From IMG/VR virus record IMGVR_UViG_3300018475_000004: a stretch of 64,000 bases of DNA. One strand, written 5' to 3'. The DNA comes from a virus (lineage: Duplodnaviria; Heunggongvirae; Uroviricota; Caudoviricetes). This document shows positions 12,048 through 37,782 of the stretch, piece by piece. Both the position numbers and the translations under genes were made by a program. Each line of letters opens with the position of its first letter. The first letter of the stretch is position 1. The notes under the pieces were generated by a model, which had not been told where the DNA came from, did not search any database, and worked only from the letters and a program-made list of their open reading frames with translations.

Positions 12048-12111
12048 CTAATAAATCCCCCTATCCAACTTCTTATAAATGTCAGAGAAGTTAGAAAGGG
12101 GGATACTTTAA

Positions 12112-15651: not shown

Positions 15652-16059
15652 TTACTCAGTAACAGGAACAATCTTACTTACATTAACCTCAGCCTCAATA
15701 CGACTAGTAATGTAGGCGGTCAAGTCGCCATAAATGGAAGCCAAATAATGCTTAGCTTCATCAGTTAATACAGACATAACTGCATTATAAGTCAAATTGA
15801 AAGCTTCCTTCTGAGCTTCTGCATCAAACTTACCTTGCTTCTTCAAAGATTCAACATAAGTCTGATTAGTTGCGATAACGCAAGTAGTGATAGTATCAGC
15901 AAGCATTTGAATGTACTTATCTGCTAATTCACTATCAGTCTTATCTGCGATTTCTTGGCTCTTCATTTTAATGAATTGAACTAAGTACATAGTCAATACA
16001 CCCAAGAGAGGAATAACGCAAAGTTCAAAAATTTGATATAACATAACCATCCAGTCCAT
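15652..16059 (-). CDS. Putative holin-like single-TM protein (135 aa)
   Basis: N-terminal transmembrane segment VIPLLGVLTMYLVQFI then a soluble coiled region; ribosome-binding site AAGGGGGA; terminator immediately downstream. Confidence 0.4.
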   Translation of the reverse strand: MDWMVMLYQIFELCVIPLLGVLTMYLVQFIKMKSQEIADKTDSELADKYIQMLADTITTCVIATNQTYVESLKKQGKFDAEAQKEAFNLTYNAVMSVLTDEAKHYLASIYGDLTAYITSRIEAEVNVSKIVPVTE

Positions 16060-20393: not shown

Positions 20394-20502
20394 ATATGTT
20401 CCTCCTTTTCTAAAAATTTTTATAAAAAAAGAGTATCTCTTTTTATTTTCTAATATAAATAAAAAAAGAGATTAGTATATTATTTTTATTCGGCCAATAA
20501 CA

Positions 20503-20537
20503 AAAAAAATGGGTGGAAGTAAAAATTACTTCCACCC
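20503..20537 (-). terminator. Rho-independent terminator (minus strand)
   Basis: 11-bp stem GGGTGGAAGTA/TACTTCCACCC followed on the minus strand by T8. Confidence 0.7.
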
Positions 20538-20544
20538 ATAAAAG

Positions 20545-21192
20545 TTATGAAACAAATTCAATCCAAAAAATATCTTGCTGATTTAATTTTCTGATTTCGT
20601 CAGTAAAATGTTCATACATACTACTAGCAATATCATAATCACCAGCTAGATCTCCGGCGTCTTCAAGGCCGTTTGGCTGAACGTTTAGTCCATATAGGAC
20701 TTTGCCAACATTTGGCATGGTGCTGATATTATAGAGGATTTTCTTTCCATCAGCATCAACACGATAAAAACGAATGGCATATTCTACTTCTGCTTCGTCT
20801 TGAGTTACTCGTCCATCAATACACCATGGAATAACCATCTTATCCTTTTCCAAAGTGCCAGGAGTAGCTTTATGAGTATAAATGTCGTAATATGGAACGG
20901 CATATAAACCAGTCACACCTTGCTTCTGGGGGTCTGCGGGATAAGTCTTATAAGAAATAACACAGGTGGTGGTAGACAAGTCCATATAATCCCAATATCT
21001 ATCCATGATAAAGTATAAATTTTCGGATTTATGGTCACGAGCAGTGCTTAGGATATCACGTTCTCCAATTGAGCGAGTACGCCAATCAACTTCAATGTAA
21101 TCCTCCGCATATGGAATGGAAGCCATCTTTGGAGGATTACTTCTTTGGATTTCATATAATTTGTCAATAGCAGTTTGACTTAACTGTGACAT
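20545..21192 (-). CDS. Hypothetical structural protein (215 aa)
   Basis: Intact ORF; ribosome-binding site AAAGGAGGTCAATAATT. Confidence 0.6.
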   Translation of the reverse strand: MSQLSQTAIDKLYEIQRSNPPKMASIPYAEDYIEVDWRTRSIGERDILSTARDHKSENLYFIMDRYWDYMDLSTTTCVISYKTYPADPQKQGVTGLYAVPYYDIYTHKATPGTLEKDKMVIPWCIDGRVTQDEAEVEYAIRFYRVDADGKKILYNISTMPNVGKVLYGLNVQPNGLEDAGDLAGDYDIASSMYEHFTDEIRKLNQQDIFWIEFVS

Positions 21193-21210
21193 AATTATTG
21201 ACCTCCTTTA

Positions 21211-23223
21211 TTAAGAAATCTGGAATACCTTAGAAGTAGTTTTCTTTTCTTCTCCTGCTAGAGTATTAGTGATTTCACAGTAATAGAAGGCAATATTAAC
21301 AGGCAAGTCATTATTAGCTAATAGCTTAACAGTAATTTCACTGCCATTTACACTAATAATATCTAGATCAGAATCCTTAATAGGAGTACCATTCTGGTTA
21401 GGAGTATTGCGGAACCACTTGTAAGTGACACCGTCAGTCTGGAACTCATTCATTTCTTCAATTTCAATCTTGAAGGTAATAGGAGTATTCAAGCCAGGAA
21501 CATTCTCTAAAGTTGGGTCATCATCTGTAATAGGATACTCGATACCATCAACTAGATACTTGACGATTTCAGGAGCTTCAGCAGGATAAGTAACCTTACA
21601 TTCAGAACTTTCTTTCCACATACTCTCTCTGTTCAAAGTACCGATAGCCTTAACTTTATACCAGCCTGGCTGAGTAGCAGTCATACTAGCATTAGAAGCA
21701 TTGGGAACTTCAACATATTCAGCGTCAGAAGAAGCAGCTTCATACCATACATAGCTCTTTTCAGCACCGTCATTTGCATCAACAGTAACAGTTAAAATAG
21801 CCTGGCTAACAGTCTCTTCGCCTTCGCCAATAGTAGATAGAACTTTGTTCTTAGGTAAATCTGCGGTGAACTCAACTTTTTCAACACAAGGAATTACGCA
21901 CTTCAAAGAATCAACGCTCTCTGCAGATTTGCTACTACCAACTTGATTGTTCAAAGTTAGCTTGTATTCACCGGTGACGTGAGGCCAATATCTCTTATTA
22001 GGTGCTAGCGCAGTAGAAGCACCCAAATCCTCAGCATCATCATCAACAGCCAAAATGGTATAAACACTTACCTGCTCATAATAAACAGGAGCAGCTTCTC
22101 CCTCTTCTGGCTCTTCAAAAGCATCGCCTAGGAAAACAGTATAAATCTGATTGCCAGTTTCAGCTTCGATTTCTTCAACATAATAAGTCTTGCCAGCTTC
22201 TTTTTCAGTATCATTTGTGGGCTTGAAGATAGTATCTACATCAGCGTAAGCCTTGAAAACTTCTTCAGTATCTTTAGTTACAGCGACATTATTTTCGATG
22301 AATCGAGGAGTATAATACCACTTGTAGCACAACTGACCTGCATCAGCAGTGGCACCGCTAGCATATAGCTTAATTGCATCATTCTTTAAGAAAGCTTTTC
22401 CTTCGTCATTACCCAATTTCCAATCATAGAAGAAGACAGGAATCTGAGGTAGAGTCATGTTGGAGTCAACGCCATTTTCAACTGCGGCCGCAAACAACAA
22501 AGATGGATCATCAATGTCTAGGTCAGCATTGAAATGAGTATATAGAGCTTGCTTAATCATAACAGAACTAGCCAAAGTATTTAAGCTGTACTGAATTTCT
22601 TTCTCTTCATTTCTTACGAAGAAACGAACAGAGAACTTCAAAGGATTTTTACCTTCAACAGTAACCTTACTGGTCAAAGGCCAACCAAATAATAGATAAC
22701 CTTCTTCTGCTTCAAAGTCAACTAAGACAATACGAGAAGCACCTTCGTCTCCTGCTGGGTTAGTCCACTGAACATAAATTTCAGTAGAAGCCAAGTCAGT
22801 ATAATCGAAATAGCGAGGAACCTTAAACATCAAAGTCTCGGCTAACTGATCACCAGTAACACTAACACCATATTTACTATAAATATCAGGAACCTGAATA
22901 TTTCTAGTATTTAGGTCAATGTAAAAACAGCCAGACTTGACATCGTATTTTTCATCCATAGGAAGCATCAAGAACTTAGCAGAGTTTTGATATGCAACAT
23001 TAGAAGGTGGATTATTTCTAATATTTTCAGTGTGATAATCTGCTAAATAACCAATATGAGCAAAATACTCTTCAAGAGAACTGATTTTGCCTTTATCCAA
23101 AACAGACTGATTAATCTTTACACCAAGAGGATCTTTAGCCTGCATATCCAATAAAACGTTATATGCGTCTTGGAATAGAACGGTATATTGGTCTTTATAA
23201 TCTTTATTATAGACTGTAATCAC
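21211..23223 (-). CDS. Hypothetical structural protein (670 aa, GTG start, no TAG)
   Basis: Intact ORF; GTG start at 23223. Confidence 0.55.
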   Translation of the reverse strand: MITVYNKDYKDQYTVLFQDAYNVLLDMQAKDPLGVKINQSVLDKGKISSLEEYFAHIGYLADYHTENIRNNPPSNVAYQNSAKFLMLPMDEKYDVKSGCFYIDLNTRNIQVPDIYSKYGVSVTGDQLAETLMFKVPRYFDYTDLASTEIYVQWTNPAGDEGASRIVLVDFEAEEGYLLFGWPLTSKVTVEGKNPLKFSVRFFVRNEEKEIQYSLNTLASSVMIKQALYTHFNADLDIDDPSLLFAAAVENGVDSNMTLPQIPVFFYDWKLGNDEGKAFLKNDAIKLYASGATADAGQLCYKWYYTPRFIENNVAVTKDTEEVFKAYADVDTIFKPTNDTEKEAGKTYYVEEIEAETGNQIYTVFLGDAFEEPEEGEAAPVYYEQVSVYTILAVDDDAEDLGASTALAPNKRYWPHVTGEYKLTLNNQVGSSKSAESVDSLKCVIPCVEKVEFTADLPKNKVLSTIGEGEETVSQAILTVTVDANDGAEKSYVWYEAASSDAEYVEVPNASNASMTATQPGWYKVKAIGTLNRESMWKESSECKVTYPAEAPEIVKYLVDGIEYPITDDDPTLENVPGLNTPITFKIEIEEMNEFQTDGVTYKWFRNTPNQNGTPIKDSDLDIISVNGSEITVKLLANNDLPVNIAFYYCEITNTLAGEEKKTTSKVFQIS

Positions 23224-23250
23224 GTTATATCTTCCTTTCTTTATAATATT

Positions 23251-23282
23251 GTTCTAGGGAAGGAATTTCCCTTCCCTAGAAC
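23251..23282. other. Perfect 13-bp inverted repeat in the intergenic region
   Basis: GTTCTAGGGAAGG-aatttc-CCTTCCCTAGAAC. Confidence 0.5.
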
Positions 23283-23299
23283 TGAAAAATCAAATAACC

Positions 23300-23509
23300 T
23301 TATTTTTTGGTATTGTCCGTAATTTCTCTCCACTTATGTTCCTCGGCCTCTTCAACAGTGACGCTGTACTGAGTACGCTCACCATTAGTTAAAATCTTGC
23401 CGGGATCAGCATTGATAGTTACGATATTGATATGATTGATACCATCTAGAAGGACCTTAGTATCTAAAATACCATTGCGGCCAAGGTATCTGTATTTTCT
23501 ATCTTTAGT
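23300..23509 (-). CDS. Small hypothetical protein (69 aa)
   Basis: ATG at 23509 with ribosome-binding site AAAGGAGAAGG; TAATGA overlap with the upstream gene. Confidence 0.45.
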   Translation of the reverse strand, partial: TKDRKYRYLGRNGILDTKVLLDGINHINIVTINADPGKILTNGERTQYSVTVEEAEEHKWREITDNTKK

Positions 23510-23511
23510 CA

Positions 23512-26500
23512 TTAAGAACCTTCTCCTTTCCAATCCCAAACTTCAGTGTAAGGAGGATTATCAAATCCCATAGTAGAAATACTAGTATGGTAGGCTGTAT
23601 CAGTCATTAGATAATCTTCAACACTTTGTTTAGCAAAGCTAATAGTACTTACACGACCATTTTTACCATATCCCTTGAAGGCGTTTTCACCAATGAAGTT
23701 AACCGTTGAGCCGAAGTAAATATCAGTAACAGTGCCATTAGCGCCAGAACCGCCGCCAAAAGCTTGCATACCGATATAACTCAATTTAGCGTCACCGCCA
23801 CCCAATTGATTAATACTAATCTTAGGACATAAGAAAAATACGTGGCTTTCGATAGTCTCTAAAGAAGCTGGTAAAGCAGACAAAGTCAATTCACGACAAT
23901 CCATGAATGCACCAGACTTTAGAAGTTTTAGTTTAGCAGGTAAAGAAGTTAAGTTAATGTTGGTTTCATAGAATGCCTGGCTACCAATTTCTTCAACATT
24001 AGATTTCATATCAACAGTAGTTAAACTCTTGATACTCTTGAAAGCATATGTTCCGATATGAGTAATTCCAATAGGCAAATCAACATATTGCAAAGCTAAA
24101 GCTCCTTCGAAGGCTTGTTGGAAAATACTTGTATAAGAAGTATTGGTTCTCAAGAAGAATACGTGAGTAACACGAGCCATATTCTTAAAGTCTTTTACCT
24201 GAGTTAGAGGGATACCATCATATTCACTAGGTAAAGTAATTTTACCTTGTAAAGTTTCACGATATTCCTCAGCGATTGAGATCTTACCACGCTCGCTGAA
24301 ATTGAAATATTCCAATTTAGAAGCGACATCACGGCAGTCTTCAGTTAAATAGTGACCATGTAAAGTCACATCATTAGTAACTACCATTGTTGCCAAATCT
24401 TCATAAACAGGATTCTTAATTTCCTTATCCTTGTATTGGTTCTTAGACCAACCTTGGAATGCCCATCTCATATGATCTTGTAGACCTGTATTATCACGAT
24501 AGTGGAAATTAGTCATTGGACCTGCGGCCTCGACGTAAGTCTTACCATAAGGAACAGGCCAATACTCTTCACCATTCTGTAAGATAATATTACCAGCCCA
24601 GTCGCAGAAGCGAACTTTGTACTCTCTATCAGTAGTAATATACTCTGGATAGAATGTCATACTTTCAGTTGGAGTAATATCTTCAAAGGAGATTGCAGAT
24701 GCTTCTGGAACTGCTCCATCTGGCAAATCTTTTGTATTGTAATACTTAGTAATTACATTATCCTTTTTATGAATCCAATAGCCAGTAAATGCAAAATCAT
24801 GAGAAGAAGTAGATTCCTTGTGAGGAGTACCAATAGCAAAACCTAAAGGACCTTGTGCGGAAGTTAGATAAGCAATACTGTGAGCATTTTCTCCAGAGGT
24901 ATCACCGCTACCCAATACTCTGTAATATTGTTCCTCAGAATTTTCATTGGTTAAGAAAATTAATTCAACTGCGGGGTTGAAATTAGCACCAACTTTATCA
25001 GTGTACTTGAAAATCAAGTTTGGATAAGTTTTTGCATAAGTTTTGTAAATCTTATATTCATCAATAGCGCAAGCCTTATCAACTGTTAATGTACCGCTTA
25101 AAGCAGTAACAGTAGTAGTACCAAGTCTAGGACCAGTATTATTATCAGTTAAGTTTTCAAGAGCGGCAAAGGCTACAACATTATTATCGGCATCTAAGAC
25201 GAAATCATCTTCAGTCTCATCATTAATAACCCAATTTACATCGGTAAATTGATAGTTAGTTAAAGAAGGAGCTTTTGCGAAGCGATAAGTGTAAACATCT
25301 AAGCCAGGGCAGTTATTAATGTAAGCCTGCTGAATTGAATCATAAATTCCATCATCCAATCTAACAGTTTCCAAATCAAGAAGATTTGTTGCAGAGAAGA
25401 TTGCTAATGGGTTTAATTCAAGTTCTTTGGTAGTTGCGTTAGGAGCCAAAGACAATTCTTTGAAAGCACTACCACTCATTAGAACAGTTTCTAGCTGAGT
25501 TGCGTTAGTTAAGCTTAGGATAGAAATATTCTCGGGGTTACCGACATTTCTAGCCTGGAATTTTTGTAACATTGCGTTAGTACCAACGCTAACTTCGCTC
25601 AAACGAGGGTTATAATAACCTTCTATATCAGAACCGATTTCAAATTCACGCAATTTACTTGCATTAGTCATCTTGGCATAACCAGGATACAACTTATACA
25701 AGTCTTTAATTGTTTGAATCATACTTGCACCATAAATATAGCAAGTAGCATCGCTTGCGGCAGAAATCAATTCACCGACAGGGGCATTATAATAATTACC
25801 TCTCTTAATACGAGTAGAAGTTCTCTTCTGACCACCTAAGTGGATAGTGCCATAACAATCAATATAGAAAGTCATGGGAAGAACGTCAGTTGGTTGCAAT
25901 GCGAAATCACCGTCTTTATTGAAACGGAATTCGATACCAGCACTGTCTGTGAAAGCAGTACTTGCAACATATTTAGAGTTCAGATAGAACTCTTGATAAG
26001 TTTCATATTGCTTTCTCTGGTGAGTCTTACGACCACCCTCTAGACGACTTAAGAAAGTAGTTTCATCAAGACCTAAGCGTCTAGGACGAATATATTTTCT
26101 TTCATAGTCCTGAATCCAGCAAATTTCGGGAATAATATCTTGGTGAGCCTTAAATTCAGCTAGATAATCATCAGCATCCCAAGCACCCTTCTTACTCAAC
26201 TCCTGGAATAGATATTGCTGAGCCTCTCTTAATTCATGAATGAAATTCAACCATACGGAAGGAGAAGCATTGAAAACATCTTTACCATTGGGGTTAATAT
26301 CACCGACTTCTAGACCATATGTATAAGTCAAGTTACCAGTATTATCATTACCATCAGAAGTATCATTATCGTAGTTTTTAGTTAGATCCCAGTGGAATCC
26401 ATCTTCGGTGCTCCAGAAAGTGTTCTTAGCAACGTTATCAACCATGGTGTGACGAGAGATATACAAATAATGGAATACAACAGAATCCATAACCAAGTAA

Positions 26501-29500
26501 TCTTCACATTCATACAACATTTTAGCGATACGATAATCTTTAGTGTCGTGGGTATAAGTACCTTTGTAACGACTAATTTTCTGACCCTTTAGACTAATTT
26601 CAGTTGGATTTGGCTGGCCTTCGTATCCAGGAGGATCGAAGCCTTCAAACACAAAATCATCAGTAAAGGTTACAGGTTCAGGCAATTCTTCACCAGTATA
26701 TCCATTGGGGTGAGACAACTCATCATATGGACTTGGATCATTCATTGCGAACCATTCAGCCAGTCTCAAGAAATCTTGTTCTTGTTGTTCTACGGTAATG
26801 CCCTGCTCATTTTCTAACAAGTCTTCATTTTCTACAAGACCATAACGGAACTCATAGTATGGACCCTTGGTAATATCTTTACCTTCTTCGTCCTGACCTA
26901 CAACTTCTTTTTCAAAAGCTTTTTCATTGAAAATAGTCATCCAGTGTTCTGCGTTCTGGTTATCTAGAACTTCGACACAGGCCGCACGTGGATTGGTAGT
27001 ATCATGGAAAACATTCAAATTCTTCTTATCATTACCCATATTGCCGATAGAATACATCTTAAAATAAGGTTCTGCGGCATATTTTGCTTCCCAATCAGGG
27101 TTAGTTGGGTTGATAAATGCATTGGACTCCAAATAGATTTCACTCTTAGGATCTCCATTGTCATCTAAATATTTGAATTGTGTATTGTGGTCTCTCAAGA
27201 AGACAACGCCAGAGTGGAATTTCATACAGTCACGCATAGGATTGTATAATAAATTACCATCACTGTCATAACGAGTACCTTTTCTTCTGTGAGCATCCCA
27301 GTAAGGCTGGAATCTGTTATACCATTCTGCGTTTACAACGTTATTGGCATTTTCACAAGAAGCAACATTAACTTTAGTACAAGCAATGTCAATATATTCA
27401 TCTTCATCAGAAGGTCTCCATCCAGGGATTTCATTACCATTCTTATCATAAATTTTACCTTTTTTAGTAAAATCAGAACGTAAGTTAAATGCGGCAACAC
27501 CATAAGCGGCAGAAGAAGTGCCCTGAACATAAGTTCTAACTTTATCTGCTCTCATAAATGGCTTACCTAAATTATCATATTCATTAATCAACTCATAATA
27601 AGTACAGCCATCAATCTTATCTTCTTTATTAGTAGTTAATTCTGGAATATCATACAAATAAGCATGGCATCCAGGATTTTTCTGCACCAAAAGCTCATAA
27701 GAAATTTCGCCGGTACTGGAGTCAATAATATCATTGCGGCGATGGCGCTCTAGCATCTTATTAACGCTAGGAGCATCCATAACGAAGTTATTTAAATGTT
27801 CATCATTTGTTAATCTACGTTCATATGCTTTTGCGGTATATACATAGACGTCACAAGAATCAGAACCAATGCGAATGGTTTGAGCATCATTTTGCTGTAA
27901 AGCCATGTTTTGGCTGTAAGGCTTAGCACCTGCAGGAACACCATCAACCCAAATCATTAAGTAGCGATCACCATAAACGGTTTTACTACCTTGCTGTCTA
28001 TCTCCTACATTGGGCCAAATTTCAGTTTCAACTTCAATATAAGAGTTTTCACAATACTGAGTTGCGAAATTAGGATAAGTAGCAGAAGAGAAAGTTGCTT
28101 TCTGAGCATCAAATTCTAGACCAATTTCAGCGACTCTTACTTTCTCAAAATAAGTAGCAGTTTCATCAAATGGATTTCTAGAAATAATATAATCAGAGCC
28201 AGAAAGGATATAATACTTATTAGTTCTATAAGTATCTTCAGTCAATTCAATTTCGTTATAATTATAATGGATACAGCTTAAAACTGGAGCTTCATAATCA
28301 TAACAGTTGGCTGCCTTGAAGCAGAACTTAAAGTTCTTACCACCGGTAGTACCAGTTTTGAAATTTTCAAATAACTTATAGTCAATTTCCATCCAAGTAC
28401 CCTGGCGCACACAGATAAACTTTTCAATGCTTCCATCTGCAAGAACTTCATATTTTAGACCGCCATTACGCCAGTCAAAATTATCAGAGAAGTTCAATCT
28501 TACAGGCTTAGTTTCACTACCGCCAACCCAGTTAATAACTTCATCATTACCAGAGAAATTAATTGCTTTTAAGCTAAAAGCTGCACCACTAACTTCTTCT
28601 CTGTTCAAATCCAAAGGTTCAACAGTGATATTGAATTCTCTCTTAGTATCACCATTAGTAGACTCTAAAGCTAACTTAATAGTACCATGAGTGGTAATTG
28701 TGTAAGGAATAGATTGCTTATCTCTGTTGTAGCTACGAGTAGAAATTACGTTATCATTAACAGAGAAAGTAACACTACATTCAGTTGTATCTGGGTCATA
28801 AACTAAGAATGGAATCTCAATAGTGTCATATTGAGTAGCAGTCTTTTGATCAAATGGGACGGTTAAAATTGTAGAAGTACCACCTTCGGTGAAAGTGATT
28901 CTATGAACAATTTCTTGTGTTCTAACAGTAATTGGCTTTCCAGTATCTTCATTGATAGTGGCATCCAAATAAATAGAACAAGTATGCTCACCATAAGACA
29001 GACTCTTCATTGCTTGAGTAGTAAATTCATTACCGTTTGCGCGATTAGCAGGAATATCTTCCTCGAAGTAATCTTGTCCTAGAGTAGAACCATTGTCAAA
29101 AGTAATATGAGCGGTACAATTAATACCACCAAAAGGTTTGAATACTAAAGTAAAGGTTGAATCTTTACGATATTCATCTTCAGAATAAGTGAAAGGCCAC
29201 TCTAAACGCAAATCAACTTTTTGGATATTCCATTGCTTACTAGCATAGTTATCAGTGATACCGCCAGTATTCATATAGACCATCAAGTTAATACGAGTAT
29301 AGTTACCATCTTTTGCCATGGGTAAAAGTTCATCAACTCTGAATTTATTATAGCCAGTAGTTACAGATTGAGTATAAGTCTTACCATTAATAGCCCAACT
29401 TGCGGTACCAGTTTCAGTTAAGATATCTCCAACTTCATCAGTTGCAGTAATAGTAAACTCAATCCAATGCTCAACACCATTTAAGATAGTGATATTAGTA

Positions 29501-29982
29501 TCAACGTCAGCGCCATTGTAATATTCAATAGTAATATTACCTTTTTGATTAGAGCCAGGACCAGTGTTATCTCCACCGCCGCCAGACATAGCCAGTCTTT
29601 CTACAGCAATGGCGTCACCATCAACATTTAATACTCTGTAAAAACCGCCATCAGGTATATTCAAAATCAAAGAATCTAAGGCAGGAACATTTTCTCCTTC
29701 AATATGTTCAGTCATAGAGAAAGTAAAGAAAACATTAGTTCCGTATTTTTCATCATCGGTCATAGGATATTTGCCGTAGAAAATACTAGAACTGCCGCCG
29801 ACCATCTGGTATTCACCAGAGCCTAAGCCTTGATAAATCTTATGAGAATCTTGTGTGAAGTATAAGTAGCCTGGAATAGCACGTTTTCTCTTCATGTCTT
29901 GCTCAGTACAATTTACAGGTCTAAAAACATTGCCGGTCTCACGGGCGCCAATAGATTGTAAAACATTTTTTTGATCTACCAT
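23512..29982 (-). CDS. Giant virion/tail protein (2156 aa) with C-terminal BspA-type leucine-rich repeats; putative adhesin
   Basis: One uninterrupted ORF with no TAG. C-terminal repeats of the form AFxxCxxLTxIxLPxSLxxIGxxAF. Ribosome-binding site GAAAGGAGAGCAACA. Confidence 0.75.
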   Translation of the reverse strand: MVDQKNVLQSIGARETGNVFRPVNCTEQDMKRKRAIPGYLYFTQDSHKIYQGLGSGEYQMVGGSSSIFYGKYPMTDDEKYGTNVFFTFSMTEHIEGENVPALDSLILNIPDGGFYRVLNVDGDAIAVERLAMSGGGGDNTGPGSNQKGNITIEYYNGADVDTNITILNGVEHWIEFTITATDEVGDILTETGTASWAINGKTYTQSVTTGYNKFRVDELLPMAKDGNYTRINLMVYMNTGGITDNYASKQWNIQKVDLRLEWPFTYSEDEYRKDSTFTLVFKPFGGINCTAHITFDNGSTLGQDYFEEDIPANRANGNEFTTQAMKSLSYGEHTCSIYLDATINEDTGKPITVRTQEIVHRITFTEGGTSTILTVPFDQKTATQYDTIEIPFLVYDPDTTECSVTFSVNDNVISTRSYNRDKQSIPYTITTHGTIKLALESTNGDTKREFNITVEPLDLNREEVSGAAFSLKAINFSGNDEVINWVGGSETKPVRLNFSDNFDWRNGGLKYEVLADGSIEKFICVRQGTWMEIDYKLFENFKTGTTGGKNFKFCFKAANCYDYEAPVLSCIHYNYNEIELTEDTYRTNKYYILSGSDYIISRNPFDETATYFEKVRVAEIGLEFDAQKATFSSATYPNFATQYCENSYIEVETEIWPNVGDRQQGSKTVYGDRYLMIWVDGVPAGAKPYSQNMALQQNDAQTIRIGSDSCDVYVYTAKAYERRLTNDEHLNNFVMDAPSVNKMLERHRRNDIIDSSTGEISYELLVQKNPGCHAYLYDIPELTTNKEDKIDGCTYYELINEYDNLGKPFMRADKVRTYVQGTSSAAYGVAAFNLRSDFTKKGKIYDKNGNEIPGWRPSDEDEYIDIACTKVNVASCENANNVVNAEWYNRFQPYWDAHRRKGTRYDSDGNLLYNPMRDCMKFHSGVVFLRDHNTQFKYLDDNGDPKSEIYLESNAFINPTNPDWEAKYAAEPYFKMYSIGNMGNDKKNLNVFHDTTNPRAACVEVLDNQNAEHWMTIFNEKAFEKEVVGQDEEGKDITKGPYYEFRYGLVENEDLLENEQGITVEQQEQDFLRLAEWFAMNDPSPYDELSHPNGYTGEELPEPVTFTDDFVFEGFDPPGYEGQPNPTEISLKGQKISRYKGTYTHDTKDYRIAKMLYECEDYLVMDSVVFHYLYISRHTMVDNVAKNTFWSTEDGFHWDLTKNYDNDTSDGNDNTGNLTYTYGLEVGDINPNGKDVFNASPSVWLNFIHELREAQQYLFQELSKKGAWDADDYLAEFKAHQDIIPEICWIQDYERKYIRPRRLGLDETTFLSRLEGGRKTHQRKQYETYQEFYLNSKYVASTAFTDSAGIEFRFNKDGDFALQPTDVLPMTFYIDCYGTIHLGGQKRTSTRIKRGNYYNAPVGELISAASDATCYIYGASMIQTIKDLYKLYPGYAKMTNASKLREFEIGSDIEGYYNPRLSEVSVGTNAMLQKFQARNVGNPENISILSLTNATQLETVLMSGSAFKELSLAPNATTKELELNPLAIFSATNLLDLETVRLDDGIYDSIQQAYINNCPGLDVYTYRFAKAPSLTNYQFTDVNWVINDETEDDFVLDADNNVVAFAALENLTDNNTGPRLGTTTVTALSGTLTVDKACAIDEYKIYKTYAKTYPNLIFKYTDKVGANFNPAVELIFLTNENSEEQYYRVLGSGDTSGENAHSIAYLTSAQGPLGFAIGTPHKESTSSHDFAFTGYWIHKKDNVITKYYNTKDLPDGAVPEASAISFEDITPTESMTFYPEYITTDREYKVRFCDWAGNIILQNGEEYWPVPYGKTYVEAAGPMTNFHYRDNTGLQDHMRWAFQGWSKNQYKDKEIKNPVYEDLATMVVTNDVTLHGHYLTEDCRDVASKLEYFNFSERGKISIAEEYRETLQGKITLPSEYDGIPLTQVKDFKNMARVTHVFFLRTNTSYTSIFQQAFEGALALQYVDLPIGITHIGTYAFKSIKSLTTVDMKSNVEEIGSQAFYETNINLTSLPAKLKLLKSGAFMDCRELTLSALPASLETIESHVFFLCPKISINQLGGGDAKLSYIGMQAFGGGSGANGTVTDIYFGSTVNFIGENAFKGYGKNGRVSTISFAKQSVEDYLMTDTAYHTSISTMGFDNPPYTEVWDWKGEGS

Positions 29983-30008
29983 TGTTGCTCTCCTTTCTAT
30001 CCAAATAT

Positions 30009-30044
30009 AAAAAAAATGGAGAGGATAATTATATTATCCTCTCC
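30009..30044 (-). terminator. Rho-independent terminator (minus strand)
   Basis: 12-bp stem GGAGAGGATAAT/ATTATCCTCTCC followed on the minus strand by T8. Confidence 0.7.
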
Positions 30045-30107
30045 ATATAATCATCCTTCATAAGGATTTGAAAATAACAACTTATTTATTGTCCTTTTCT
30101 GTCCGAA

Positions 30108-32237
30108 TTAGAATGTTCCCCATACGAAGCTAACATTTACGGTGCAGTCTTTTCCTTCGCCAGAAATATTAGTTACAATATTCTCGCTAGCAGAAATAAC
30201 AGAAACAGTTCCTAAAACTTCACCTAAATGGCTCTTCATCTTGATCTTGGCATCTTCAACAACCAATTCAGGATCATTGAAAGTAGAATAACCAGTCTTA
30301 ACCCAGATGAAGAAATCCTTCTTAGCATTAGCATCAGCTAAAGTAGCACCGTCTGCCTGATCATCTCTAGCAACCAATAAGTCACCAATCTGAGGCTCAG
30401 TTTCAGCGTTACTAAAAGCAGTAGTTACAACGTAAGTGTCACCAGCCTGGATTCCAGAAGCAGGTAAGCTGTCATAACCGGTTACGCTACCCTTGAAGGA
30501 CATGGAGTTTGCGGCAGCCATATTCTCATTAATCAGATCTAGCAAAGCCTGGTCTTTTTCGTCAGCAGTATTAGCAGCCTGAGTTAAAGCATCGGCAATA
30601 GCATCTTCACGATCCTTGGTTTCAGCACTAATTAAATTAGTTAACTCTTCGTCTCTCTTCTCACGAGCCTCAGTTTCAGAAGTCAAAGCATTGTTTAAAT
30701 TATTGATAGCAGTCTGACGGGCTTGAGCTTCCTGCTGAATTGTGTCATCAGTATCAGTTGCCCAATCCTCTAAATCTTTAATTTGTTTTGAAGCAGTTGT
30801 CTTCCAATTTTCTAAAGTAGAAACTTTACCATCAGTTGCAGCCAAACCATTAGAAACAGTAGTAATCTTTCCGTCTAACTCAGTATCGGCATTAGTACGA
30901 GCTGTCTTTTCCTGTTCTAAAGCAGTATCGACATTAGCGATAGCTTGAGCATTAGCCTGATCAGCTGCTTGACGGTCTGCAATTTCTTTATTCAAATTCA
31001 ACCGAACAGCATCAGCACTAGAGCCAGCCTCACCAATCAAACCTTCCAGTCTTTCGACTTCTTCGGCCAATTCGCCATCCAAGGCTTCAATAGCATCAGC
31101 ATTAGCTTGATCGCCAGTGGCACGGTCTACCAATTCTTGAGCTAAACCAGCTTTATTAGTGTCAGACTGAGTCTTAGCATCGTTAGCAATACCAGTAGTG
31201 GCAGCTAAGCTACTAGTTAAACCAGTAATAGACTGCTCTAAAGCATTCTTATCAGTAGTGTGAGTATTAGTTAGGTTAGTAATAAGTGTTCTTAACTTGC
31301 CTTCAACTCCAATAGCACGAGAAGCTTCATTGGCGGCAGCTGTGGCAGCTTCATCAGCCTTAGACTGAGCATTAGCAGCAGCAGTCGCATTAGCTTGCTC
31401 AGCAGCCTTAGCACGAGCAGCTTCATCAGTCAAACCAGTTGTTAAGGTACTGATATTACCAGTATTCTTATCTACATCGGTACGTAAGCCATTTTCAATA
31501 CCAGTTGCACGTTCCTGCTCTGCAAGAACCTTAGCATTTACATAATCAACAATGTTAGTAGCAACTCCATCTGGTAATTGACCAAACAAAGTCTTTAAGT
31601 TAGAGATATCACCCTCATTGGTACTAACACGTCCACTTAGAGTGGTAATACTGCCTTGTAAAGCCTCATCGCCATCTTCTCTAGCCTCAATTTCAGCATT
31701 TAAATCTGCTCTTAATTGGGTTAAAGAATCAGTAGAGCCATCTCCACCGCCAGTTAAAGCATCAATACGATTTCTTAGGGCGGCTTCAGCGTTAGTAGCA
31801 CGAGTAGTCTCAGTAGCTAAATTAGTTTGCAAGGTCTTAATATAGCCCTCATTAGTAGTAATTCTAACATCAAGGGCCGCAATATCAGCATTTACATCAC
31901 TTAAATCATTGATAAGTACAAAAGTCTTTTCGCTCTTCTTGTACTTCATCAAAGCATTCTCTTGGATAGAGTAGTATAAGCAATGCTCAGAGAAAGCTTT
32001 GTCAGGATCTGTAGCAGCTGCGGCAGCAGCCTTGATATCGTCAAAGCTAGCAACAGAGATGAAATCACCGACACGGACTCTCTTAGCAACACCGCCGCCT
32101 TCATCAGTAGTTAAATCTAGATAAATACCAGGCTCATCAGTACAGAAAGAAACGGCACCAGGAACAATATTATCGCCAGCTAAAATCTGGTCGATTGTAC
32201 CTCTTCTAAATAATAAACTTAATTTTTCATCAGCCAT
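30108..32237 (-). CDS. Tail fibre/spike protein with long coiled-coil (709 aa, no TAG)
   Basis: N-terminus LLFRRGT...ILAGDNIVPGAVSFCTDEPGIYLD resembles the conserved phage tail-fibre / HylP-type N-terminal domain; Ala/Thr/Asn-rich heptad region; ribosome-binding site AAGGAGG. Confidence 0.65.
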   Translation of the reverse strand: MADEKLSLLFRRGTIDQILAGDNIVPGAVSFCTDEPGIYLDLTTDEGGGVAKRVRVGDFISVASFDDIKAAAAAATDPDKAFSEHCLYYSIQENALMKYKKSEKTFVLINDLSDVNADIAALDVRITTNEGYIKTLQTNLATETTRATNAEAALRNRIDALTGGGDGSTDSLTQLRADLNAEIEAREDGDEALQGSITTLSGRVSTNEGDISNLKTLFGQLPDGVATNIVDYVNAKVLAEQERATGIENGLRTDVDKNTGNISTLTTGLTDEAARAKAAEQANATAAANAQSKADEAATAAANEASRAIGVEGKLRTLITNLTNTHTTDKNALEQSITGLTSSLAATTGIANDAKTQSDTNKAGLAQELVDRATGDQANADAIEALDGELAEEVERLEGLIGEAGSSADAVRLNLNKEIADRQAADQANAQAIANVDTALEQEKTARTNADTELDGKITTVSNGLAATDGKVSTLENWKTTASKQIKDLEDWATDTDDTIQQEAQARQTAINNLNNALTSETEAREKRDEELTNLISAETKDREDAIADALTQAANTADEKDQALLDLINENMAAANSMSFKGSVTGYDSLPASGIQAGDTYVVTTAFSNAETEPQIGDLLVARDDQADGATLADANAKKDFFIWVKTGYSTFNDPELVVEDAKIKMKSHLGEVLGTVSVISASENIVTNISGEGKDCTVNVSFVWGTF

Positions 32238-32257
32238 TATTAGTAATCCTCCTTATA

Positions 32258-33679
32258 TTAAGTAGTGACAAAGTCAGATAACTCATGCCAAGCAAAACGA
32301 TCCTCAAACTCAGACTTAGTTAAATAAGTTTGAGAAACTTCAATCTTATAAGCAGTTAAAGTTGTATCCAAAGATTGTAAAGAAGCATTTAAAGCAGCTA
32401 AGTCAGTAGATAAACTATCTACATTATTAGACAAATTCTTAAAATCTTCATTTAAATCCAATTCAGCAATCTTAGAACCACTTACGGAAACAATAGATAA
32501 AGTGCGGTTTTCATCAATTGCTAATTCATTTTCATCAACCGCATTGATAACATTTTTCTCGCCCTCTGCATTCATTGCCTCTAACTTTGCAATTAGAGTA
32601 TCATCAACTAAGCTCTTGCCTGGGACAATAGTGACTTTAGAGTCAATACCAGACTGTAAAGATAAAATAGTTGTATGATTTGCAATATTAGCAGTATCAG
32701 GTAAGCTGATAAGTTTTAACTTACCATCAGTAATTTCAAACTCATCACTAACTTCATTGATAACGTTCTTTTGAGCGCCTTCTTCAATGGTAGCTAATTT
32801 AGCAGTCTGAGCTGTAGACATTAGTCCATAGCCATCAACTTTATCAACTTTTCCATCAAGATCATCCTTGGTGGCATAATTATCAAGATTAACTTCCCAA
32901 GAACCTAATCTTTCAATCCCACCATCAATAACCATATATTCATCATATACGTCATTTACTAAGCCTTCTAAAACAGGAACTAAGTAAATAGTATTAGAAA
33001 CATTAGCATCTTCATTATCAATATCCGCCTGAATGTCATCTAAACTATCAACTTTTTTATATACTAGATGTCCAGCCTTAGCAATTTCAGCTAAGGTCTC
33101 TTCTTTAGTATAAACATTCTCTAAAGCCTTCTCATTCAAAGAAACCTGGATACCCAAGCTCTCAACAGTACCCTGTAAATCACTTACAGAAGTCTGTAAA
33201 GTGCTTAAAGAACTATTTACACCTTCCAATGTAGTTGAATTTGGCTCAAACCAACCTAATACCAATTGACCGGCTTCACTAGTTACTTTTGGTTCTAGAC
33301 CAGCAATCCAAGGATGGTTTTCATCAACTTCCTGTAAAGTATATTCTTCGGTTTCTGCGTCATATTTATAATAACGCTTACCAAAATCTTTGAAAGCTAC
33401 TGCGCCATTATCCAAAACAATAGTTTTGTTATCAGCAACAACAGCAGAGCCAACTTTTTCTAAATCTCCAGCTAAGTTAGTAATAATATAAGCATTAGCT
33501 ACATCATCAACAACCAAGCTTAAAATCTGACCTACATAGGCAGTAGGATCACTAGCTGCATAAGCAGCCATCAAATCATAGTCATACCATAAGGCAGTAC
33601 TATCCAGAGGAATTGGATTATTTCTCTGAATAGCAGCAGGCAAGTACATGACATTAAAATCTTGTCTAATTACAGCCAT
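32258..33679 (-). CDS. Tail fibre-associated structural protein (473 aa, no TAG)
   Basis: Intact ORF in the fibre cluster. Confidence 0.55.
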   Translation of the reverse strand: MAVIRQDFNVMYLPAAIQRNNPIPLDSTALWYDYDLMAAYAASDPTAYVGQILSLVVDDVANAYIITNLAGDLEKVGSAVVADNKTIVLDNGAVAFKDFGKRYYKYDAETEEYTLQEVDENHPWIAGLEPKVTSEAGQLVLGWFEPNSTTLEGVNSSLSTLQTSVSDLQGTVESLGIQVSLNEKALENVYTKEETLAEIAKAGHLVYKKVDSLDDIQADIDNEDANVSNTIYLVPVLEGLVNDVYDEYMVIDGGIERLGSWEVNLDNYATKDDLDGKVDKVDGYGLMSTAQTAKLATIEEGAQKNVINEVSDEFEITDGKLKLISLPDTANIANHTTILSLQSGIDSKVTIVPGKSLVDDTLIAKLEAMNAEGEKNVINAVDENELAIDENRTLSIVSVSGSKIAELDLNEDFKNLSNNVDSLSTDLAALNASLQSLDTTLTAYKIEVSQTYLTKSEFEDRFAWHELSDFVTT

Positions 33680-33693
33680 TCTTCAATTCCTCC

Positions 33694-35181
33694 TTAGTTC
33701 AAAGTAATTTTATGGACTTCATCAACACCCATTTTACTTGGAGCATAAACCCAAACTTCATACTCAGCAGCGGTAGCACCATTAGCACCTTCAACCATAA
33801 CATTATCTTGCTGTACATAGTCAGCAGTGCAATTATAATTCATAGATTCAGGCATAATAATTTCTTTAATACCATTACGAGTATTAGAAGCAGGAATAGC
33901 AATAATAATACGAGTAGGATTATTAATAGTTTCTGCGTCAACAGTAATAACCTTACCGGCATTATAATTCCAAGAAGTAGCTAAACCTCTAATTACAGCA
34001 GAGTCAATAGCTCCAGTACCATTATCAACACCAACAAAAGAAGCGCGATAACCAATAATAGAACTAGTAGCCTTAGTTACGGAACCACCCTTGATATATT
34101 CTGCGCTTTCTTGCTGTAAGTTATTATAGGCTTTAACACCATCAGTATAAGTAGCAGTAATTGCTACAGAATACTTAGTATCATCAGTAATGGTAATTTC
34201 TGGCATGGAGCCAGAAGCTGTATTAGCAGTATTGTTATTGGTATCAACAACACTATAACTACTAACAGTTACGCCAGTACTTTCAGGGCCAAATTCATAA
34301 CTACCAGGAGTGAAAGTAGAAGTATACTTAGGAATTACAGAAGTGCCAACTTCATAAGAAGTCTTAGTTCCATCCCAGGAGACAGTGAACTCTACATCGG
34401 TAATTGTTGGATCTTTTACCTCAGAGAACAACTTATTAAAGAACTCAGCAACATTCAAACCTGCGGCCTGAACTTCAATATTACCAGACTCTGGAATTTT
34501 TACTGTACCTACATTTTCAGTAAATACAAAATCGCTTTTGAAGTAAACATTTTCAGCGTTATAATTGCCATCCATGGCGGCCCAATTTGTACCGTCATAT
34601 ACATAAGCAGTATGCTCATACATATCATTAGCAATTAAGACTCTTACGATTGCTACATCATTTTTATGCAATTCAGCACCATTTACGATGCGAACGATTG
34701 CGGCCTCCTTGCTCTCATCTGCTTCTGCGGTTACTTGATAAACAACAGCATTAGAAGCAGCTCCTGCGCCTTCAGGAACGGCCCAAGTGCCGTCCGCACG
34801 CAAGAACATATTTTCTTCGCCCTTTGCGGGGGCTGGCACTAGGCCAGCCTTACCGTCGGACAAAGAAGAAGAGCCAACAAATACTAATGCTTCTTTACTA
34901 CAATTTACCCAAGCACCTTGAGATTGATTGTAGATTAGAAAGGAAGCATCAGATAAGTCTAAGGAATTTACAATGACATCAGATAAGTCGTTTAAACTTA
35001 GTAATTCAGATAGATCTCCGCTATTGCTTTCGCCATTACCAGCAATTAACTTATTACCTAAGTACAAGCAACCTTCACTAGCAGTAGGTTCAGCAATAAA
35101 ATACAGGGTATCAATATCTTTTTCAACCAAAGCGGCGTACTGTGTAGGAGTACCTCGCATAAACTTAACGTATCTTGCCAA
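33694..35181 (-). CDS. Tail fibre-like protein (495 aa, TTG start, no TAG)
   Basis: N-terminus FMRGTPTQYAALVEKDIDTLYFIAEP...LYLGNKLIAG has the same fibre N-domain pattern; ribosome-binding site AGGAAGGAGAG. Confidence 0.6.
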   Translation of the reverse strand: MARYVKFMRGTPTQYAALVEKDIDTLYFIAEPTASEGCLYLGNKLIAGNGESNSGDLSELLSLNDLSDVIVNSLDLSDASFLIYNQSQGAWVNCSKEALVFVGSSSLSDGKAGLVPAPAKGEENMFLRADGTWAVPEGAGAASNAVVYQVTAEADESKEAAIVRIVNGAELHKNDVAIVRVLIANDMYEHTAYVYDGTNWAAMDGNYNAENVYFKSDFVFTENVGTVKIPESGNIEVQAAGLNVAEFFNKLFSEVKDPTITDVEFTVSWDGTKTSYEVGTSVIPKYTSTFTPGSYEFGPESTGVTVSSYSVVDTNNNTANTASGSMPEITITDDTKYSVAITATYTDGVKAYNNLQQESAEYIKGGSVTKATSSIIGYRASFVGVDNGTGAIDSAVIRGLATSWNYNAGKVITVDAETINNPTRIIIAIPASNTRNGIKEIIMPESMNYNCTADYVQQDNVMVEGANGATAAEYEVWVYAPSKMGVDEVHKITLN

Positions 35182-35244
35182 TATAATCTCTCTCCTTCCT
35201 AAAAATTATTTACTTATATATATTAATTTCTCAATAGAAAGAAA

Positions 35245-37401: not shown

Positions 37402-37766
37402 GCGCTTCCACCTGACCCTTCAAATACAATGTCAATTAGAAGACGGTCGCCTTTGCCATCTTCATCGTACCACTTCAATGAAGGACCGTCAAATTTGATA
37501 CGGAAAATCTGTCCATAACCTTCTAAATCAATCTCATAAATACCTGTCTCGCCAATGACGATTGGGTAATTACTATCATTCAAATAGAACATTGTACCTG
37601 GACGACCTTGAATACCAAGCTTTGTGATTGCGCTATATTCATTAAAAATATTACCACCGATCAATCTTTCTGGGAAAGAAGGATCATTTGGATAATTATT
37701 TATTTTGGCAAATTCATTATTAATCAAATCAGATCCATAATATCTAAATTGTCTAATAGCTTTCAA
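37398..37766 (-). CDS. Small structural protein (about 122 aa)
   Basis: ORF 37398..37790; preferred TTG start at 37766, 9 nt after AAAAGGAGG; TGA stop overlaps the downstream ATG. Confidence 0.4.
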   Translation of the reverse strand: MKAIRQFRYYGSDLINNEFAKINNYPNDPSFPERLIGGNIFNEYSAITKLGIQGRPGTMFYLNDSNYPIVIGETGIYEIDLEGYGQIFRIKFDGPSLKWYDEDGKGDRLLIDIVFEGSGGSA

Positions 37767-37782
37767 TTCGTCCGTCCTCCTT

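What the first reader, a model, noticed from the sequence alone, without database searches (positions are those of the whole stretch)
21211..35181. A 14-kb block of late genes with no TAG codons sits inside the TAG-rich module
The consecutive genes at 21211..23223, 23300..23509, 23512..29982 (2156 aa), 30108..32237, 32258..33679 and 33694..35181 contain zero in-frame TAGs across about 4500 codons. Flanking late genes average about 0.5-0.9% TAG codons, which predicts about 25 here. This block holds the likely host-recognition proteins: the BspA-like leucine-rich-repeat giant protein and three fibre genes. That suggests recent acquisition from a standard-code phage, or deliberate exclusion of these genes from suppressor-dependent expression.
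Basis: seen in the sequence. Interest (0 to 1): 0.7.

Follow-up and report, generated by a model that had tools for sequence, protein, structure and literature searches.

The report
TAG-free tail-fibre module in a recoded phage
In a gut phage that reads the stop codon TAG as glutamine in its late genes, a conserved seven-gene tail-fibre module is kept free of TAG by natural selection rather than by recent import, so gene-by-gene avoidance of a reassigned codon reaches beyond early genes.

Summary
Seven consecutive minus-strand genes (20545..35181, 4,754 codons) have no in-frame TAG. The other TAG-using late genes carry 95 TAGs in 10,532 codons (P about 1e-16). Gln content and off-frame TAG density are normal.

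"Recent acquisition from a standard-code phage" is not supported. The module is syntenic in relatives and mostly follows the backbone tree. It is no more diverged than its flanks, and no standard-code near-relative was found.

"Exclusion from suppressor-dependent decoding" is supported as purifying selection:
- In the flanks, CAG and TAG interchange between orthologues as fast as synonymous C/T sites.
- In the module, interchange is 1 of 57 sites against 27 expected (window vs L092) and 1 of 28 against 18.5 (window vs L086).
- CAG/CAA interchange is tolerated.

The module's codon usage also shifts towards that of the early genes and the major tail gene. That shift alone does not predict zero TAG.

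Complete exclusion is clade-specific. More distant recoded relatives carry 11-26 TAGs in the same genes, but always at a lower fraction than their flanks (9 of 9 lineages).

Why these genes are protected (timing, cost of truncated fibres, expression level) is inferred, not shown. This is a new variant of a known phenomenon.

The parts
33694..35181 (-). First gene of the TAG-free module. Fibre-like protein of 495 aa from the TTG start (488 aa from the ATG at 35160).
   Evidence: 0 TAG in 9 Gln codons. PHROG 35541, E = 1e-31. The C-terminal domain is 30% identical to a Faecalibacterium phage FP_Brigit protein. The TTG start region is conserved in relatives.
32258..33679 (-). Fibre-like protein, 473 aa.
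   Evidence: 0 TAG in 14 Gln codons. The exact protein occurs in 39 collection blocks. The orthologue in L087 has 7 TAG.
30108..32237 (-). Ala/Thr-rich coiled-coil fibre-like protein, 709 aa. It is the most variable gene of the module.
   Evidence: 0 TAG in 27 Gln codons. 82% identical to L092, 55% to L086 and 37% to L087.
30016..30046 (-). 14-bp hairpin followed by a T-run (intrinsic-terminator-like) between the 709-aa gene and the giant gene.
   Evidence: Almost identical in nucleotide sequence in L086, L087, L089, L091 and L092, so it does not distinguish TAG-free from TAG-rich lineages.
23512..29982 (-). Giant protein of 2156 aa with a C-terminal BspA-type leucine-rich-repeat domain.
   Evidence: 0 TAG in 69 Gln codons. 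Pfam LRR_5, E = 1e-43, at residues 1951-2075. PDB matches cover the LRR only. About 75 full-length homologues at 39-97% identity.
23300..23512 (-). Small gene of 70 aa. Its ATG overlaps the giant gene's stop codon by one base.
   Evidence: 0 TAG.
23250..23278 (-). Perfect hairpin between the 70-aa gene and the next gene. It holds the only 'in-frame' TAG of that stop-to-stop frame (23256), which lies upstream of the start codon.
21211..23223 (-). Protein of 670 aa from the conserved GTG start (644 aa from the ATG at 23145). No family match.
   Evidence: 0 TAG in 18 Gln codons, 15 of them CAG. No Pfam, PHROG or PDB match. GTG start region conserved.
20545..21192 (-). Protein of 215 aa.
   Evidence: 0 TAG in 9 Gln codons. 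It lies in one 14.9-kb, 92%-identical alignment with L092 that spans 35253..20399.
20509..20539 (-). 14-bp hairpin followed by a T-run, immediately after the last TAG-free gene.
   Evidence: Conserved in relatives.
35245..37401 (-). Upstream flank: a hypervariable fibre-like gene of 718 aa with 5 in-frame TAG.
   Evidence: No terminator lies between it and the first module gene.
18288..20393 (-). Downstream flank: a gene of 701 aa with 5 in-frame TAG.
61206..62258 (-). Comparator: the major structural gene (probably the major tail protein). It is TAG-free and sits at the 'optimised' end of codon usage.
   Evidence: PHROG 2729. TAG in 6 of 495 Gln-type codons over 50 recoded relatives, against 2352 of 7950 in neighbouring genes. 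Most negative PC1 score.

Best explanation
The block is a vertically inherited, conserved seven-gene distal-tail module: three fibre-like proteins, a 2156-aa LRR protein and three smaller proteins. It belongs to a large TAG-to-Gln recoded siphovirus distantly related to phAss-1.

In this phage and its close clade (L092, L086, L085), purifying selection removes CAG-to-TAG changes from these genes. The neighbouring late genes treat TAG as a neutral synonym of CAG. The module therefore reads the same in code 11 and code 15 and can be translated without the phage's amber suppressor. Its other codon choices (AAG, CAG, TTC, few A-ending four-fold codons) are shifted towards those of the early genes and the major tail gene.

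Shown: the absence of TAG, the conservation, the congruent phylogeny, and the suppressed CAG/TAG turnover.

Inferred: the reason. Most likely these proteins must be made efficiently or completely when suppression is absent or incomplete. That could be early in the late phase. It could also be because truncated fibres, which keep the N-terminal anchor and lack the distal part, would poison assembly.
For: 1. Zero TAG in 4,754 codons against 0.90% in the TAG-using late genes. P = 1.5e-16. The depletion is frame-specific and Gln content is normal.

2. The state is conserved. TAG counts over the 7 block genes are L092 1, L086 1, L089 14, L091 11 and L087 26. L085 has 1 in the 3 fibre genes covered. 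L088 is a standard-code relative (giant gene only, 0 in-frame TAG).

3. The phylogeny is largely congruent, and divergence is equal to or lower than in the flanks.

4. A test calibrated on synonymous change. Among aligned sites where one orthologue has CAG, the share where the other has TAG was compared with C/T interchange at two-fold synonymous sites.
- Flanks: 3 of 7 (expected 4.6), 3 of 6 (4.7), 3 of 4 (3.0).
- Block: 1 of 57 (expected 26.9, P = 8e-15), 1 of 28 (18.5, P = 4e-12), 1 of 31 (19.4).
- CAG/CAA interchange in the block is 20 of 76 and AAG/AAA is 46 of 156, so the constraint is specific to TAG.

5. TAG sites turn over quickly in the flanks. Most are specific to one lineage.

6. 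Codon usage with Gln excluded. PC1 correlates with TAG fraction outside the block (rho = 0.76, P = 2e-4). The block differs from TAG-using late genes (Mann-Whitney P = 0.005). Non-block genes in the block's PC1 range still carry 16 TAG in 82 Gln-type codons, so regime alone does not give zero.

7. The block's TAG fraction is below the flank fraction in all nine recoded lineages examined.

8. Precedent in the same family. The major structural gene avoids TAG in 50 recoded relatives (6 of 495 against 2352 of 7950).
Against: Complete exclusion is limited to one clade. L087, L091, L177, L178 and distant recoded relatives (L095, L097, L102, L104, L106) tolerate many TAGs in the same genes. The requirement is therefore not intrinsic to these proteins.

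The roughly 3,100-aa tape measure carries 38 TAGs, so suppression cannot be very costly late in infection.

The first three module genes appear co-transcribed with TAG-rich upstream genes. Terminators and linkers are identical in TAG-rich relatives, so no transcriptional basis for different timing is visible.

A CAI referenced on major-tail orthologues from 61 relatives did not separate the block from the flanks.

Flank CAG counts are small (4-7 sites per comparison).

No suppressor tRNA was seen in the window or in 29 related loci, so the decoding machinery of this phage was not examined.
Confidence: 0.6

Rival explanations
1. Recent horizontal acquisition of the block from a standard-code phage. 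TAG is absent because there has been too little time for it to accumulate.
For: Tail-fibre modules are exchanged in this family. L087 and L089 have 98% identical baseplate C-termini but blocks only 39-78% identical. Part of the giant gene is mosaic. Standard-code relatives with CAG- and AAG-rich giant genes exist in the wider family. The block's codon usage differs from its flanks.
Against: The window's block is syntenic and largely congruent with the backbone, and is not more diverged than the flanks.

Synonymous C/T sites inside the block have changed at 47-66% of C-containing sites between lineages, while CAG/TAG changed at 2-4%. Time was therefore ample.

No standard-code donor above 59% identity was found among 5.8 billion proteins. 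The standard-code relatives in IMG/VR are at most 42% identical, mostly 27-33%.
Confidence: 0.05
2. Old import plus inertia. The ancestor of the window/L092/L089/L086/L085 clade received a module from a standard-code, host-adapted lineage, and today's state is a slowly decaying relic.
For: The CAG- and AAG-rich, TAG-poor state is confined to this clade. Relatives outside this clade (L091, L087, L177, L178) have AT-rich, TAG-containing versions. L089 is intermediate with 14 TAG. AAG and CAG shares (0.44-0.60) lie between those of standard-code relatives (about 0.7-0.8) and those of the flanks (about 0.25).
Against: The clade's giant protein is nested among recoded relatives (69-71% to L091, 59% to standard-code L088) and is not an outlier.

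The A-ending four-fold share has not decayed (0.12-0.16 against 0.25).

The CAG-to-TAG deficit relative to synonymous change cannot be inertia.

Several of L089's TAGs lie in or near a segment that is closer to L091 than to the window, which suggests import rather than decay.

The origin question is compatible with selection acting now.
Confidence: 0.15
3. By-product of general translational selection for expression level. The module is simply highly expressed, and TAG is one more non-optimal codon. There is no specific link to the code switch.
For: TAG fraction tracks a Gln-independent codon-usage axis among late genes (rho 0.76-0.77). The most abundant structural gene is TAG-free across the family. 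A preprint reports a TAG-free major capsid gene in a recoded crAss-like phage and gives the same rationale (bioRxiv 10.64898/2026.08.21.746148).
Against: Non-block genes with the same codon-usage score carry about 20% TAG (16 of 82), which gives P about 1e-12 for the block's zero.

CAG/CAA and AAG/AAA swaps are tolerated in the block.

Orthologous modules with presumably the same stoichiometry are TAG-rich in relatives.

Fibres and a 2156-aa protein are not expected to be the most abundant virion parts (general knowledge).

The CAI test was inconclusive.
Confidence: 0.2

Closest known systems
Standard-code-compatible ('dual-coded') early gene blocks of TAG- or TGA-recoded phages (Borges et al. 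preprint 10.1101/2021.08.26.457843; Mgcod preprint 10.1101/2022.06.29.495998)
   Same: A contiguous run of genes with no reassigned stop codon, inside a genome whose other genes need the alternative code. The proposed logic is translation independent of the code switch.
   Different: Those blocks are replication and early genes on their own strand or module; the window's own example is 616..12570 on the plus strand. This block is a late structural module embedded between TAG-rich tail genes on the same strand, apparently partly in the same transcription unit. Its TAG-free state is specific to one clade.
TAG-free major capsid gene in a recoded Crassvirales genome (bioRxiv 10.64898/2026.08.21.746148)
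   Same: A late structural gene that avoids the reassigned codon. It is interpreted as translational selection. The window's major structural gene 61206..62258 behaves the same way across 50 relatives.
   Different: That is a single, very abundant protein. Here it is seven genes, including a 2156-aa protein and fibre-like proteins. In crAss-like phages, fibre proteins are TAG-rich and TAG-to-Gln decoding was shown by proteomics (PMC9523058).
phAss-1 / proposed Phassvirus group of code-15 siphoviruses (PMC10607447)
   Same: Large gut siphoviruses with TAG-to-Gln late genes, a tape measure of about 3,100 aa, and homologous structural proteins (41% identity).
   Different: Only distantly related. 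In phAss-1 the putative tail-fibre gene is among those interrupted by TAG. The suppressor tRNAs and 33-36 tRNAs documented there were not observable for this phage.
Mosaic exchange of tail-fibre modules between related phages
   Same: Module swapping demonstrably occurs in this family (L087 vs L089). Nearly invariant intergenic linkers flank the variable genes.
   Different: Exchange does not explain the window's TAG-free state. The window's module is congruent with its backbone, and the demonstrably swapped module (L087) is the TAG-rich one.

Membership tests
Code-15 (TAG-to-Gln) recoded phage | Conserved late genes are interrupted by in-frame TAG and become full-length when TAG is read through | tested here: met
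   95 in-frame TAGs in 16 late genes. ORFs of 700-1,834 aa appear when TAG is read through, and they match independent gene calls.
Code-15 (TAG-to-Gln) recoded phage | TAG aligns with Gln in homologues | tested here: met
   Gln is opposite TAG in 36% of comparisons against a 2.6% background.
Code-15 (TAG-to-Gln) recoded phage | TAG is not used as a terminator | tested here: met
   All listed genes end in TAA or TGA. The standard-code relative L088 does use TAG stops.
Code-15 (TAG-to-Gln) recoded phage | The phage encodes a suppressor tRNA with anticodon CUA | not testable with these tools
   No tRNA in the window or in 29 related loci. The rest of the genome is not available. phAss-1 carries one.
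Horizontally acquired island | Phylogeny incongruent with the flanking genes | tested here: not met
   The block tree follows the backbone tree, apart from a modest discrepancy in the giant gene. The clear incongruence belongs to L087.
Horizontally acquired island | Absent or replaced in close relatives | tested here: not met
   Syntenic orthologues in L092, L089, L086, L085, L091, L177 and L178.
Horizontally acquired island | Atypical composition | tested here: inconclusive
   Codon usage differs strongly at two-fold sites and in A-ending against T-ending four-fold codons. GC at four-fold sites is the same as in the flanks (0.16), and the pattern matches other genes of the same genome.
Dual-coded (code 11 = code 15) block | Identical translation under both codes over a contiguous multi-gene stretch | tested here: met
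   0 TAG over 14.6 kb and 7 genes.
Dual-coded (code 11 = code 15) block | Composed of early or replication genes expressed before the code switch | tested here: not met
   The genes are tail-module genes on the late strand, downstream of the baseplate-like genes. Expression timing is not testable.
BspA-type leucine-rich-repeat proteins | Pfam LRR_5 repeats above the gathering score | tested here: met
   148.8 bits against a cut-off of 27.7, at residues 1951-2075. PDB LRR matches.
Genes under translational selection (highly expressed class) | Codon usage clusters with the most abundant structural gene | tested here: inconclusive
   The block shifts towards the major tail gene on PC1 and on simple indices. 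A CAI built from orthologues in 61 relatives does not separate it. Expression was not measured.

The most novel reading that the evidence does not exclude
The module is a code-neutral host-range cassette. Selection keeps it readable in the standard code for one of two reasons. Either it must be translated before, or independently of, the phage's amber-suppression switch, for example slow-folding fibres and a 2156-aa protein made ahead of the other tail parts. Or a TAG-free cassette stays functional when recombined, through the conserved intergenic linkers, between standard-code and recoded relatives that coexist in the gut. Either reason would make the reassigned codon a barrier that shapes which late genes can be timed or exchanged.
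Probability: 0.25. Interest if true: 0.7.

Novelty: new variant of a known kind. Interest (0 to 1): 0.5.

Why it matters
Stop-codon recoding in phages is usually described as a two-state map: early genes in the standard code and late genes recoded. This case adds three points.

- Within the late region, selection can hold a whole multi-gene structural module free of the reassigned codon, while adjacent genes treat TAG as a neutral synonym of CAG.
- That state can differ between close lineages.
- It gives a simple internally calibrated test for measuring the fitness cost of a reassigned codon gene by gene from metagenomes alone: CAG/TAG interchange against synonymous C/T interchange.

For annotation, a long TAG-free stretch in a recoded genome need not indicate a foreign insert or a chimeric assembly.

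Tried and rejected
- Megablast of the block and of the flank against INPHARED gave no match.
- Single-protein scans of IMG/VR with the baseplate protein and with the first fibre gene gave no relatives. The alignment-based scan with the giant protein returned only relatives at 42% identity or less, mostly standard-code.
- My first inference from L086 vs L087 alone, that the window's block is the recombinant (note 2), was overturned once L089 and L092 were added. L087 carries the swapped module.
- The idea that TAG-rich genes depend on phage tRNAs for A-ending codons could not be tested. No tRNAs were seen for this phage. The distant relative phAss-1 encodes a near-complete set that reads both A- and G-ending codons, so it gives no support.
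- Transcription-unit explanation: strong terminator-like hairpins bound parts of the block, but they and the linkers are nearly identical in TAG-rich relatives, and no terminator separates the block from the TAG-rich upstream genes.
- A CAI using major-tail orthologues of 61 relatives as reference did not discriminate. The window's own major-tail gene scores only 0.655.
- Parsimony polarisation of codon changes shows an apparent T-to-C excess in both block and flanks. This suggests bias from skewed base composition, so I used it only as weak evidence against decay.
- GC3 as an explanation: the GC3 difference does not come from four-fold sites, where GC4 is 0.16 in both.
- PDB sequence searches gave only the LRR domain.
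Full report
**What the window is.** The window has 36% G+C and no tRNA genes. The plus-strand genes at 616..12570 encode a helicase, a DNA polymerase III alpha subunit, guanylate kinase, the anaerobic ribonucleotide reductase NrdD with its activase, and dUTPase. None contains TAG. From 12617 to 63600 the genes run on the minus strand. They are the late genes: holin, fibre-like proteins, baseplate-like proteins, a tape measure of about 3,100 aa and a major structural protein.

When only TAA and TGA are treated as stops, long ORFs of 700-1,834 aa appear that carry 1-22 in-frame TAGs each. An independent pipeline called the same long genes on another sample of the same phage. In orthologue alignments TAG lies opposite Gln in 36% of cases against a 2.6% background. 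No gene ends in TAG. The phage is therefore a TAG-to-Gln recoded siphovirus. Its structural protein is 41% identical to that of phAss-1 and 43% identical to that of Enterococcus phage EF1. phAss-1 and its group are described as code-15 phages in PMC10607447.

**The observation.** Neither does the next gene, 20545..21192. Together they make seven genes and 4,754 codons.
- The TAG-using late genes hold 95 TAGs in 10,532 codons, which is 22% of their Gln-type codons. The probability of none among the block's 147 Gln-type codons is 1.5e-16.
- The block is not poor in Gln (3.1%).
- TAG in the two other reading frames is as frequent in the block as in the flanks.

The depletion is therefore specific to the coding frame and is not compositional.

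**Is it a recent import?** I retrieved relatives through the flanking baseplate protein and the giant protein, and fetched their contigs.

The module is syntenic in all of them. Identity matrices per gene give the following backbone order: (window, L092), then (L089, L087), then L086 and L085, then L091. The block gives (window, L092), L089, (L086, L085), L091. That is the same order, with two exceptions:
- L087, whose baseplate C-terminus is 98% identical to L089's, has a block only 39-78% identical to L089's.
- The giant gene is slightly mosaic.

My first reading, that the window's block was the recombinant, was therefore wrong. L087 is the one with a swapped module.

The window's block is as close to each relative as its flanks are, or closer. 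For L092 it is 94% against 86% in amino acids, within a single 14.9-kb alignment at 92% nucleotide identity. Window-type giant proteins (at least 76% identity) occur only in recoded backbones. The nearest standard-code relative found, L088 at 59%, is AT-rich and CAG-poor. IMG/VR holds only homologues at 42% identity or less. Recent acquisition is not supported.

**Is TAG selected against?** TAG counts in the orthologous block are:

| Lineage | TAGs in the block |
|---|---|
| window | 0 |
| L092 | 1 |
| L086 | 1 |
| L085 | 1 (in the three genes covered) |
| L089 | 14 |
| L091 | 11 |
| L178 | 15 |
| L177 | 7 (in the part covered) |
| L087 | 26 |

In every one of the nine recoded lineages the block's TAG fraction is below that of its flanks. 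TAG positions in the flanks are mostly specific to one lineage, so TAG turns over quickly.

The decisive test compares two rates. The first is how often CAG in one orthologue is TAG in the other. The second is how often a synonymous C at a two-fold site is T in the other.
- In the flanks the two rates agree: 3 of 7 against 4.6 expected, 3 of 6 against 4.7, and 3 of 4 against 3.0.
- In the TAG-rich block comparisons L089-L087 (8 of 12 against 8.4) and L091-L087 (3 of 6 against 4.8) they also agree.
- In the block of the window clade they do not: 1 of 57 against 26.9 (P = 8e-15), 1 of 28 against 18.5 (P = 4e-12), and 1 of 31 against 19.4.
- In the same genes CAG/CAA interchange is 20 of 76 and AAG/AAA is 46 of 156.

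There was thus ample time for TAG to arise, and other single transitions in the same codons are tolerated. CAG-to-TAG is removed by selection.

**Codon usage.** The higher GC3 of the block does not come from four-fold sites, where GC4 is 0.16 in both block and flanks. It comes from several specific shifts:

| Codon share | Block | TAG-using late genes |
|---|---|---|
| AAG among Lys codons | 0.54 | 0.24 |
| CAG among Gln-type codons | 0.50 | 0.12 |
| TTC among Phe codons | 0.59 | 0.28 |
| A-ending four-fold codons (flank subset) | 0.15 | about 0.26 |
| ATA among Ile codons | 0.01 | 0.11 |

At most two-fold families the block is indistinguishable from the early genes. Overall it resembles the other TAG-free late genes, including the major structural gene.

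A PCA of codon usage with Gln removed gives an axis that correlates with TAG fraction among non-block late genes (rho = 0.76). On that axis the block differs from TAG-using genes (P = 0.005). Non-block genes with the same score still carry 16 TAGs in 82 Gln-type codons. General codon bias therefore accompanies the exclusion but does not account for it. A CAI built on major-tail orthologues from 61 relatives was uninformative.

The major structural gene avoids TAG across 50 recoded relatives: 6 of 495 Gln-type codons against 2352 of 7950 in neighbouring genes. Gene-specific avoidance is thus a family trait, and the window clade extends it to this module.

**Transcription.** Terminator-like hairpins lie after the 709-aa gene (30046..30016) and after the 215-aa gene (20539..20509). 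A hairpin also lies after the 70-aa gene. No terminator separates the TAG-rich gene 35245..37401 from the first module gene. The hairpins and the intergenic linkers are almost identical in relatives whose module is TAG-rich. Nothing visible in the DNA therefore indicates a different transcriptional programme. The suppressor tRNA was not found in any sequence available for this phage. The tRNA set of phAss-1 is near-complete, so it does not support the idea that A-ending codons and TAG depend jointly on phage tRNAs.

**Mechanism.**
- Shown: a conserved, vertically inherited module is kept free of TAG by purifying selection in one clade, which makes it readable in either code.
- Inferred: the reason. 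I favour a requirement for complete or efficient translation when suppression is absent or partial. That could be production early in the late phase. It could also be avoidance of truncated fibre subunits, which would keep the anchoring end and compete in assembly.
- Against a strong general cost of TAG: the tape measure carries 38 TAGs, and other lineages tolerate TAG in these genes.
- Still open: the rival that this is only high-expression codon optimisation, and the possibility that the clade's ancestor imported a host-adapted module. Simple recent import is excluded.

**Comparison with what is known.** Standard-code-compatible early blocks and recoded late blocks are established (preprints 10.1101/2021.08.26.457843 and 10.1101/2022.06.29.495998). 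A TAG-free major capsid gene has been reported and attributed to translational selection. Tail-fibre proteins of crAss-like phages are TAG-rich (PMC9523058), and the phAss-1 tail-fibre gene is interrupted by TAG.

I did not find a described case of a 14.6-kb late structural module under demonstrable selection against the reassigned codon, specific to one clade and embedded among TAG-rich tail genes. It is a new variant of a known kind, of moderate interest.

Noticed in passing
window 15652..16059, 13960..14676, 13518..13940: The holin (PHROG 13712) and two neighbouring small late genes are TAG-free here and mostly so in relatives; the holin has 0 TAG in L086, L087, L089, L091, L092 and L178. 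For crAss-like and Lak phages the opposite has been reported: lysis genes are enriched in the reassigned codon.
   Followed up: partly
window 61206..62258; loci L003-L079: The major structural gene (probably the major tail protein, followed by a strong terminator at about 61150..61180) has TAG in only 6 of 495 Gln-type codons across 50 recoded relatives. Neighbouring ORFs have 2352 of 7950.
   Followed up: yes
window 49681..59069 (junction 55278..55308): The tape measure is split into ORFs of 1263 and 1831 aa in different frames that overlap by about 30 nt. Relatives have one ORF of 3107-3256 aa. This is either a frameshift (programmed or not) or an assembly error.
   Followed up: partly
window 35182..35244, 29983..30107, 23224..23299, 20394..20544; same positions in L086, L087, L089, L091, L092: The intergenic linkers of the tail-fibre region, including the hairpins, are almost identical in nucleotide sequence between phages whose adjacent genes are only 37-65% identical in protein. 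They could serve as homology anchors for module shuffling.
   Followed up: partly
L087 vs L089 (loci): These two phages have 98% identical baseplate C-termini. Their fibre modules are only 39-78% identical and have very different TAG content (26 against 14). This is a clear case of module replacement. L089's giant gene also has a segment (alignment columns about 1200-1500) closer to L091 than to the window.
   Followed up: yes
window 59734..59795 and 49485..49680: Near-consensus sigma-70-type promoters (TTGACT, 17 nt, TATAAT) lie inside the late region, upstream of 59194..59733 and of 43980..49484. The one upstream of 43980..49484 lies just downstream of an intrinsic-terminator-like hairpin; the one upstream of 59194..59733 does not.
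   Followed up: no
window 43980..49484: In the standard code this region reads as four consecutive ORFs, all in the same frame and separated by TAG. With TAG read as Gln it is one 1834-aa protein, as in relatives (1688-1799 aa).
   Followed up: partly
window 37398..37782: The 190-nt 'gap' upstream of the 64-aa ORF is probably coding. An RBS followed by a TTG start near 37766 would give about 123 aa, matching the 104-130-aa genes in relatives.
   Followed up: no
window 23512..29982 (residues about 390-890) and 33694..35160 (residues 127-487): The central part of the giant protein is about 25% identical to 2,282-aa proteins of Bacteroides 'Hankyphage' p00-type phages, which sources annotate as CotH-kinase family. 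The fibre C-terminal domain is 30% identical to a protein of Faecalibacterium phage FP_Brigit. These are conflicting, weak leads to the host.
   Followed up: no
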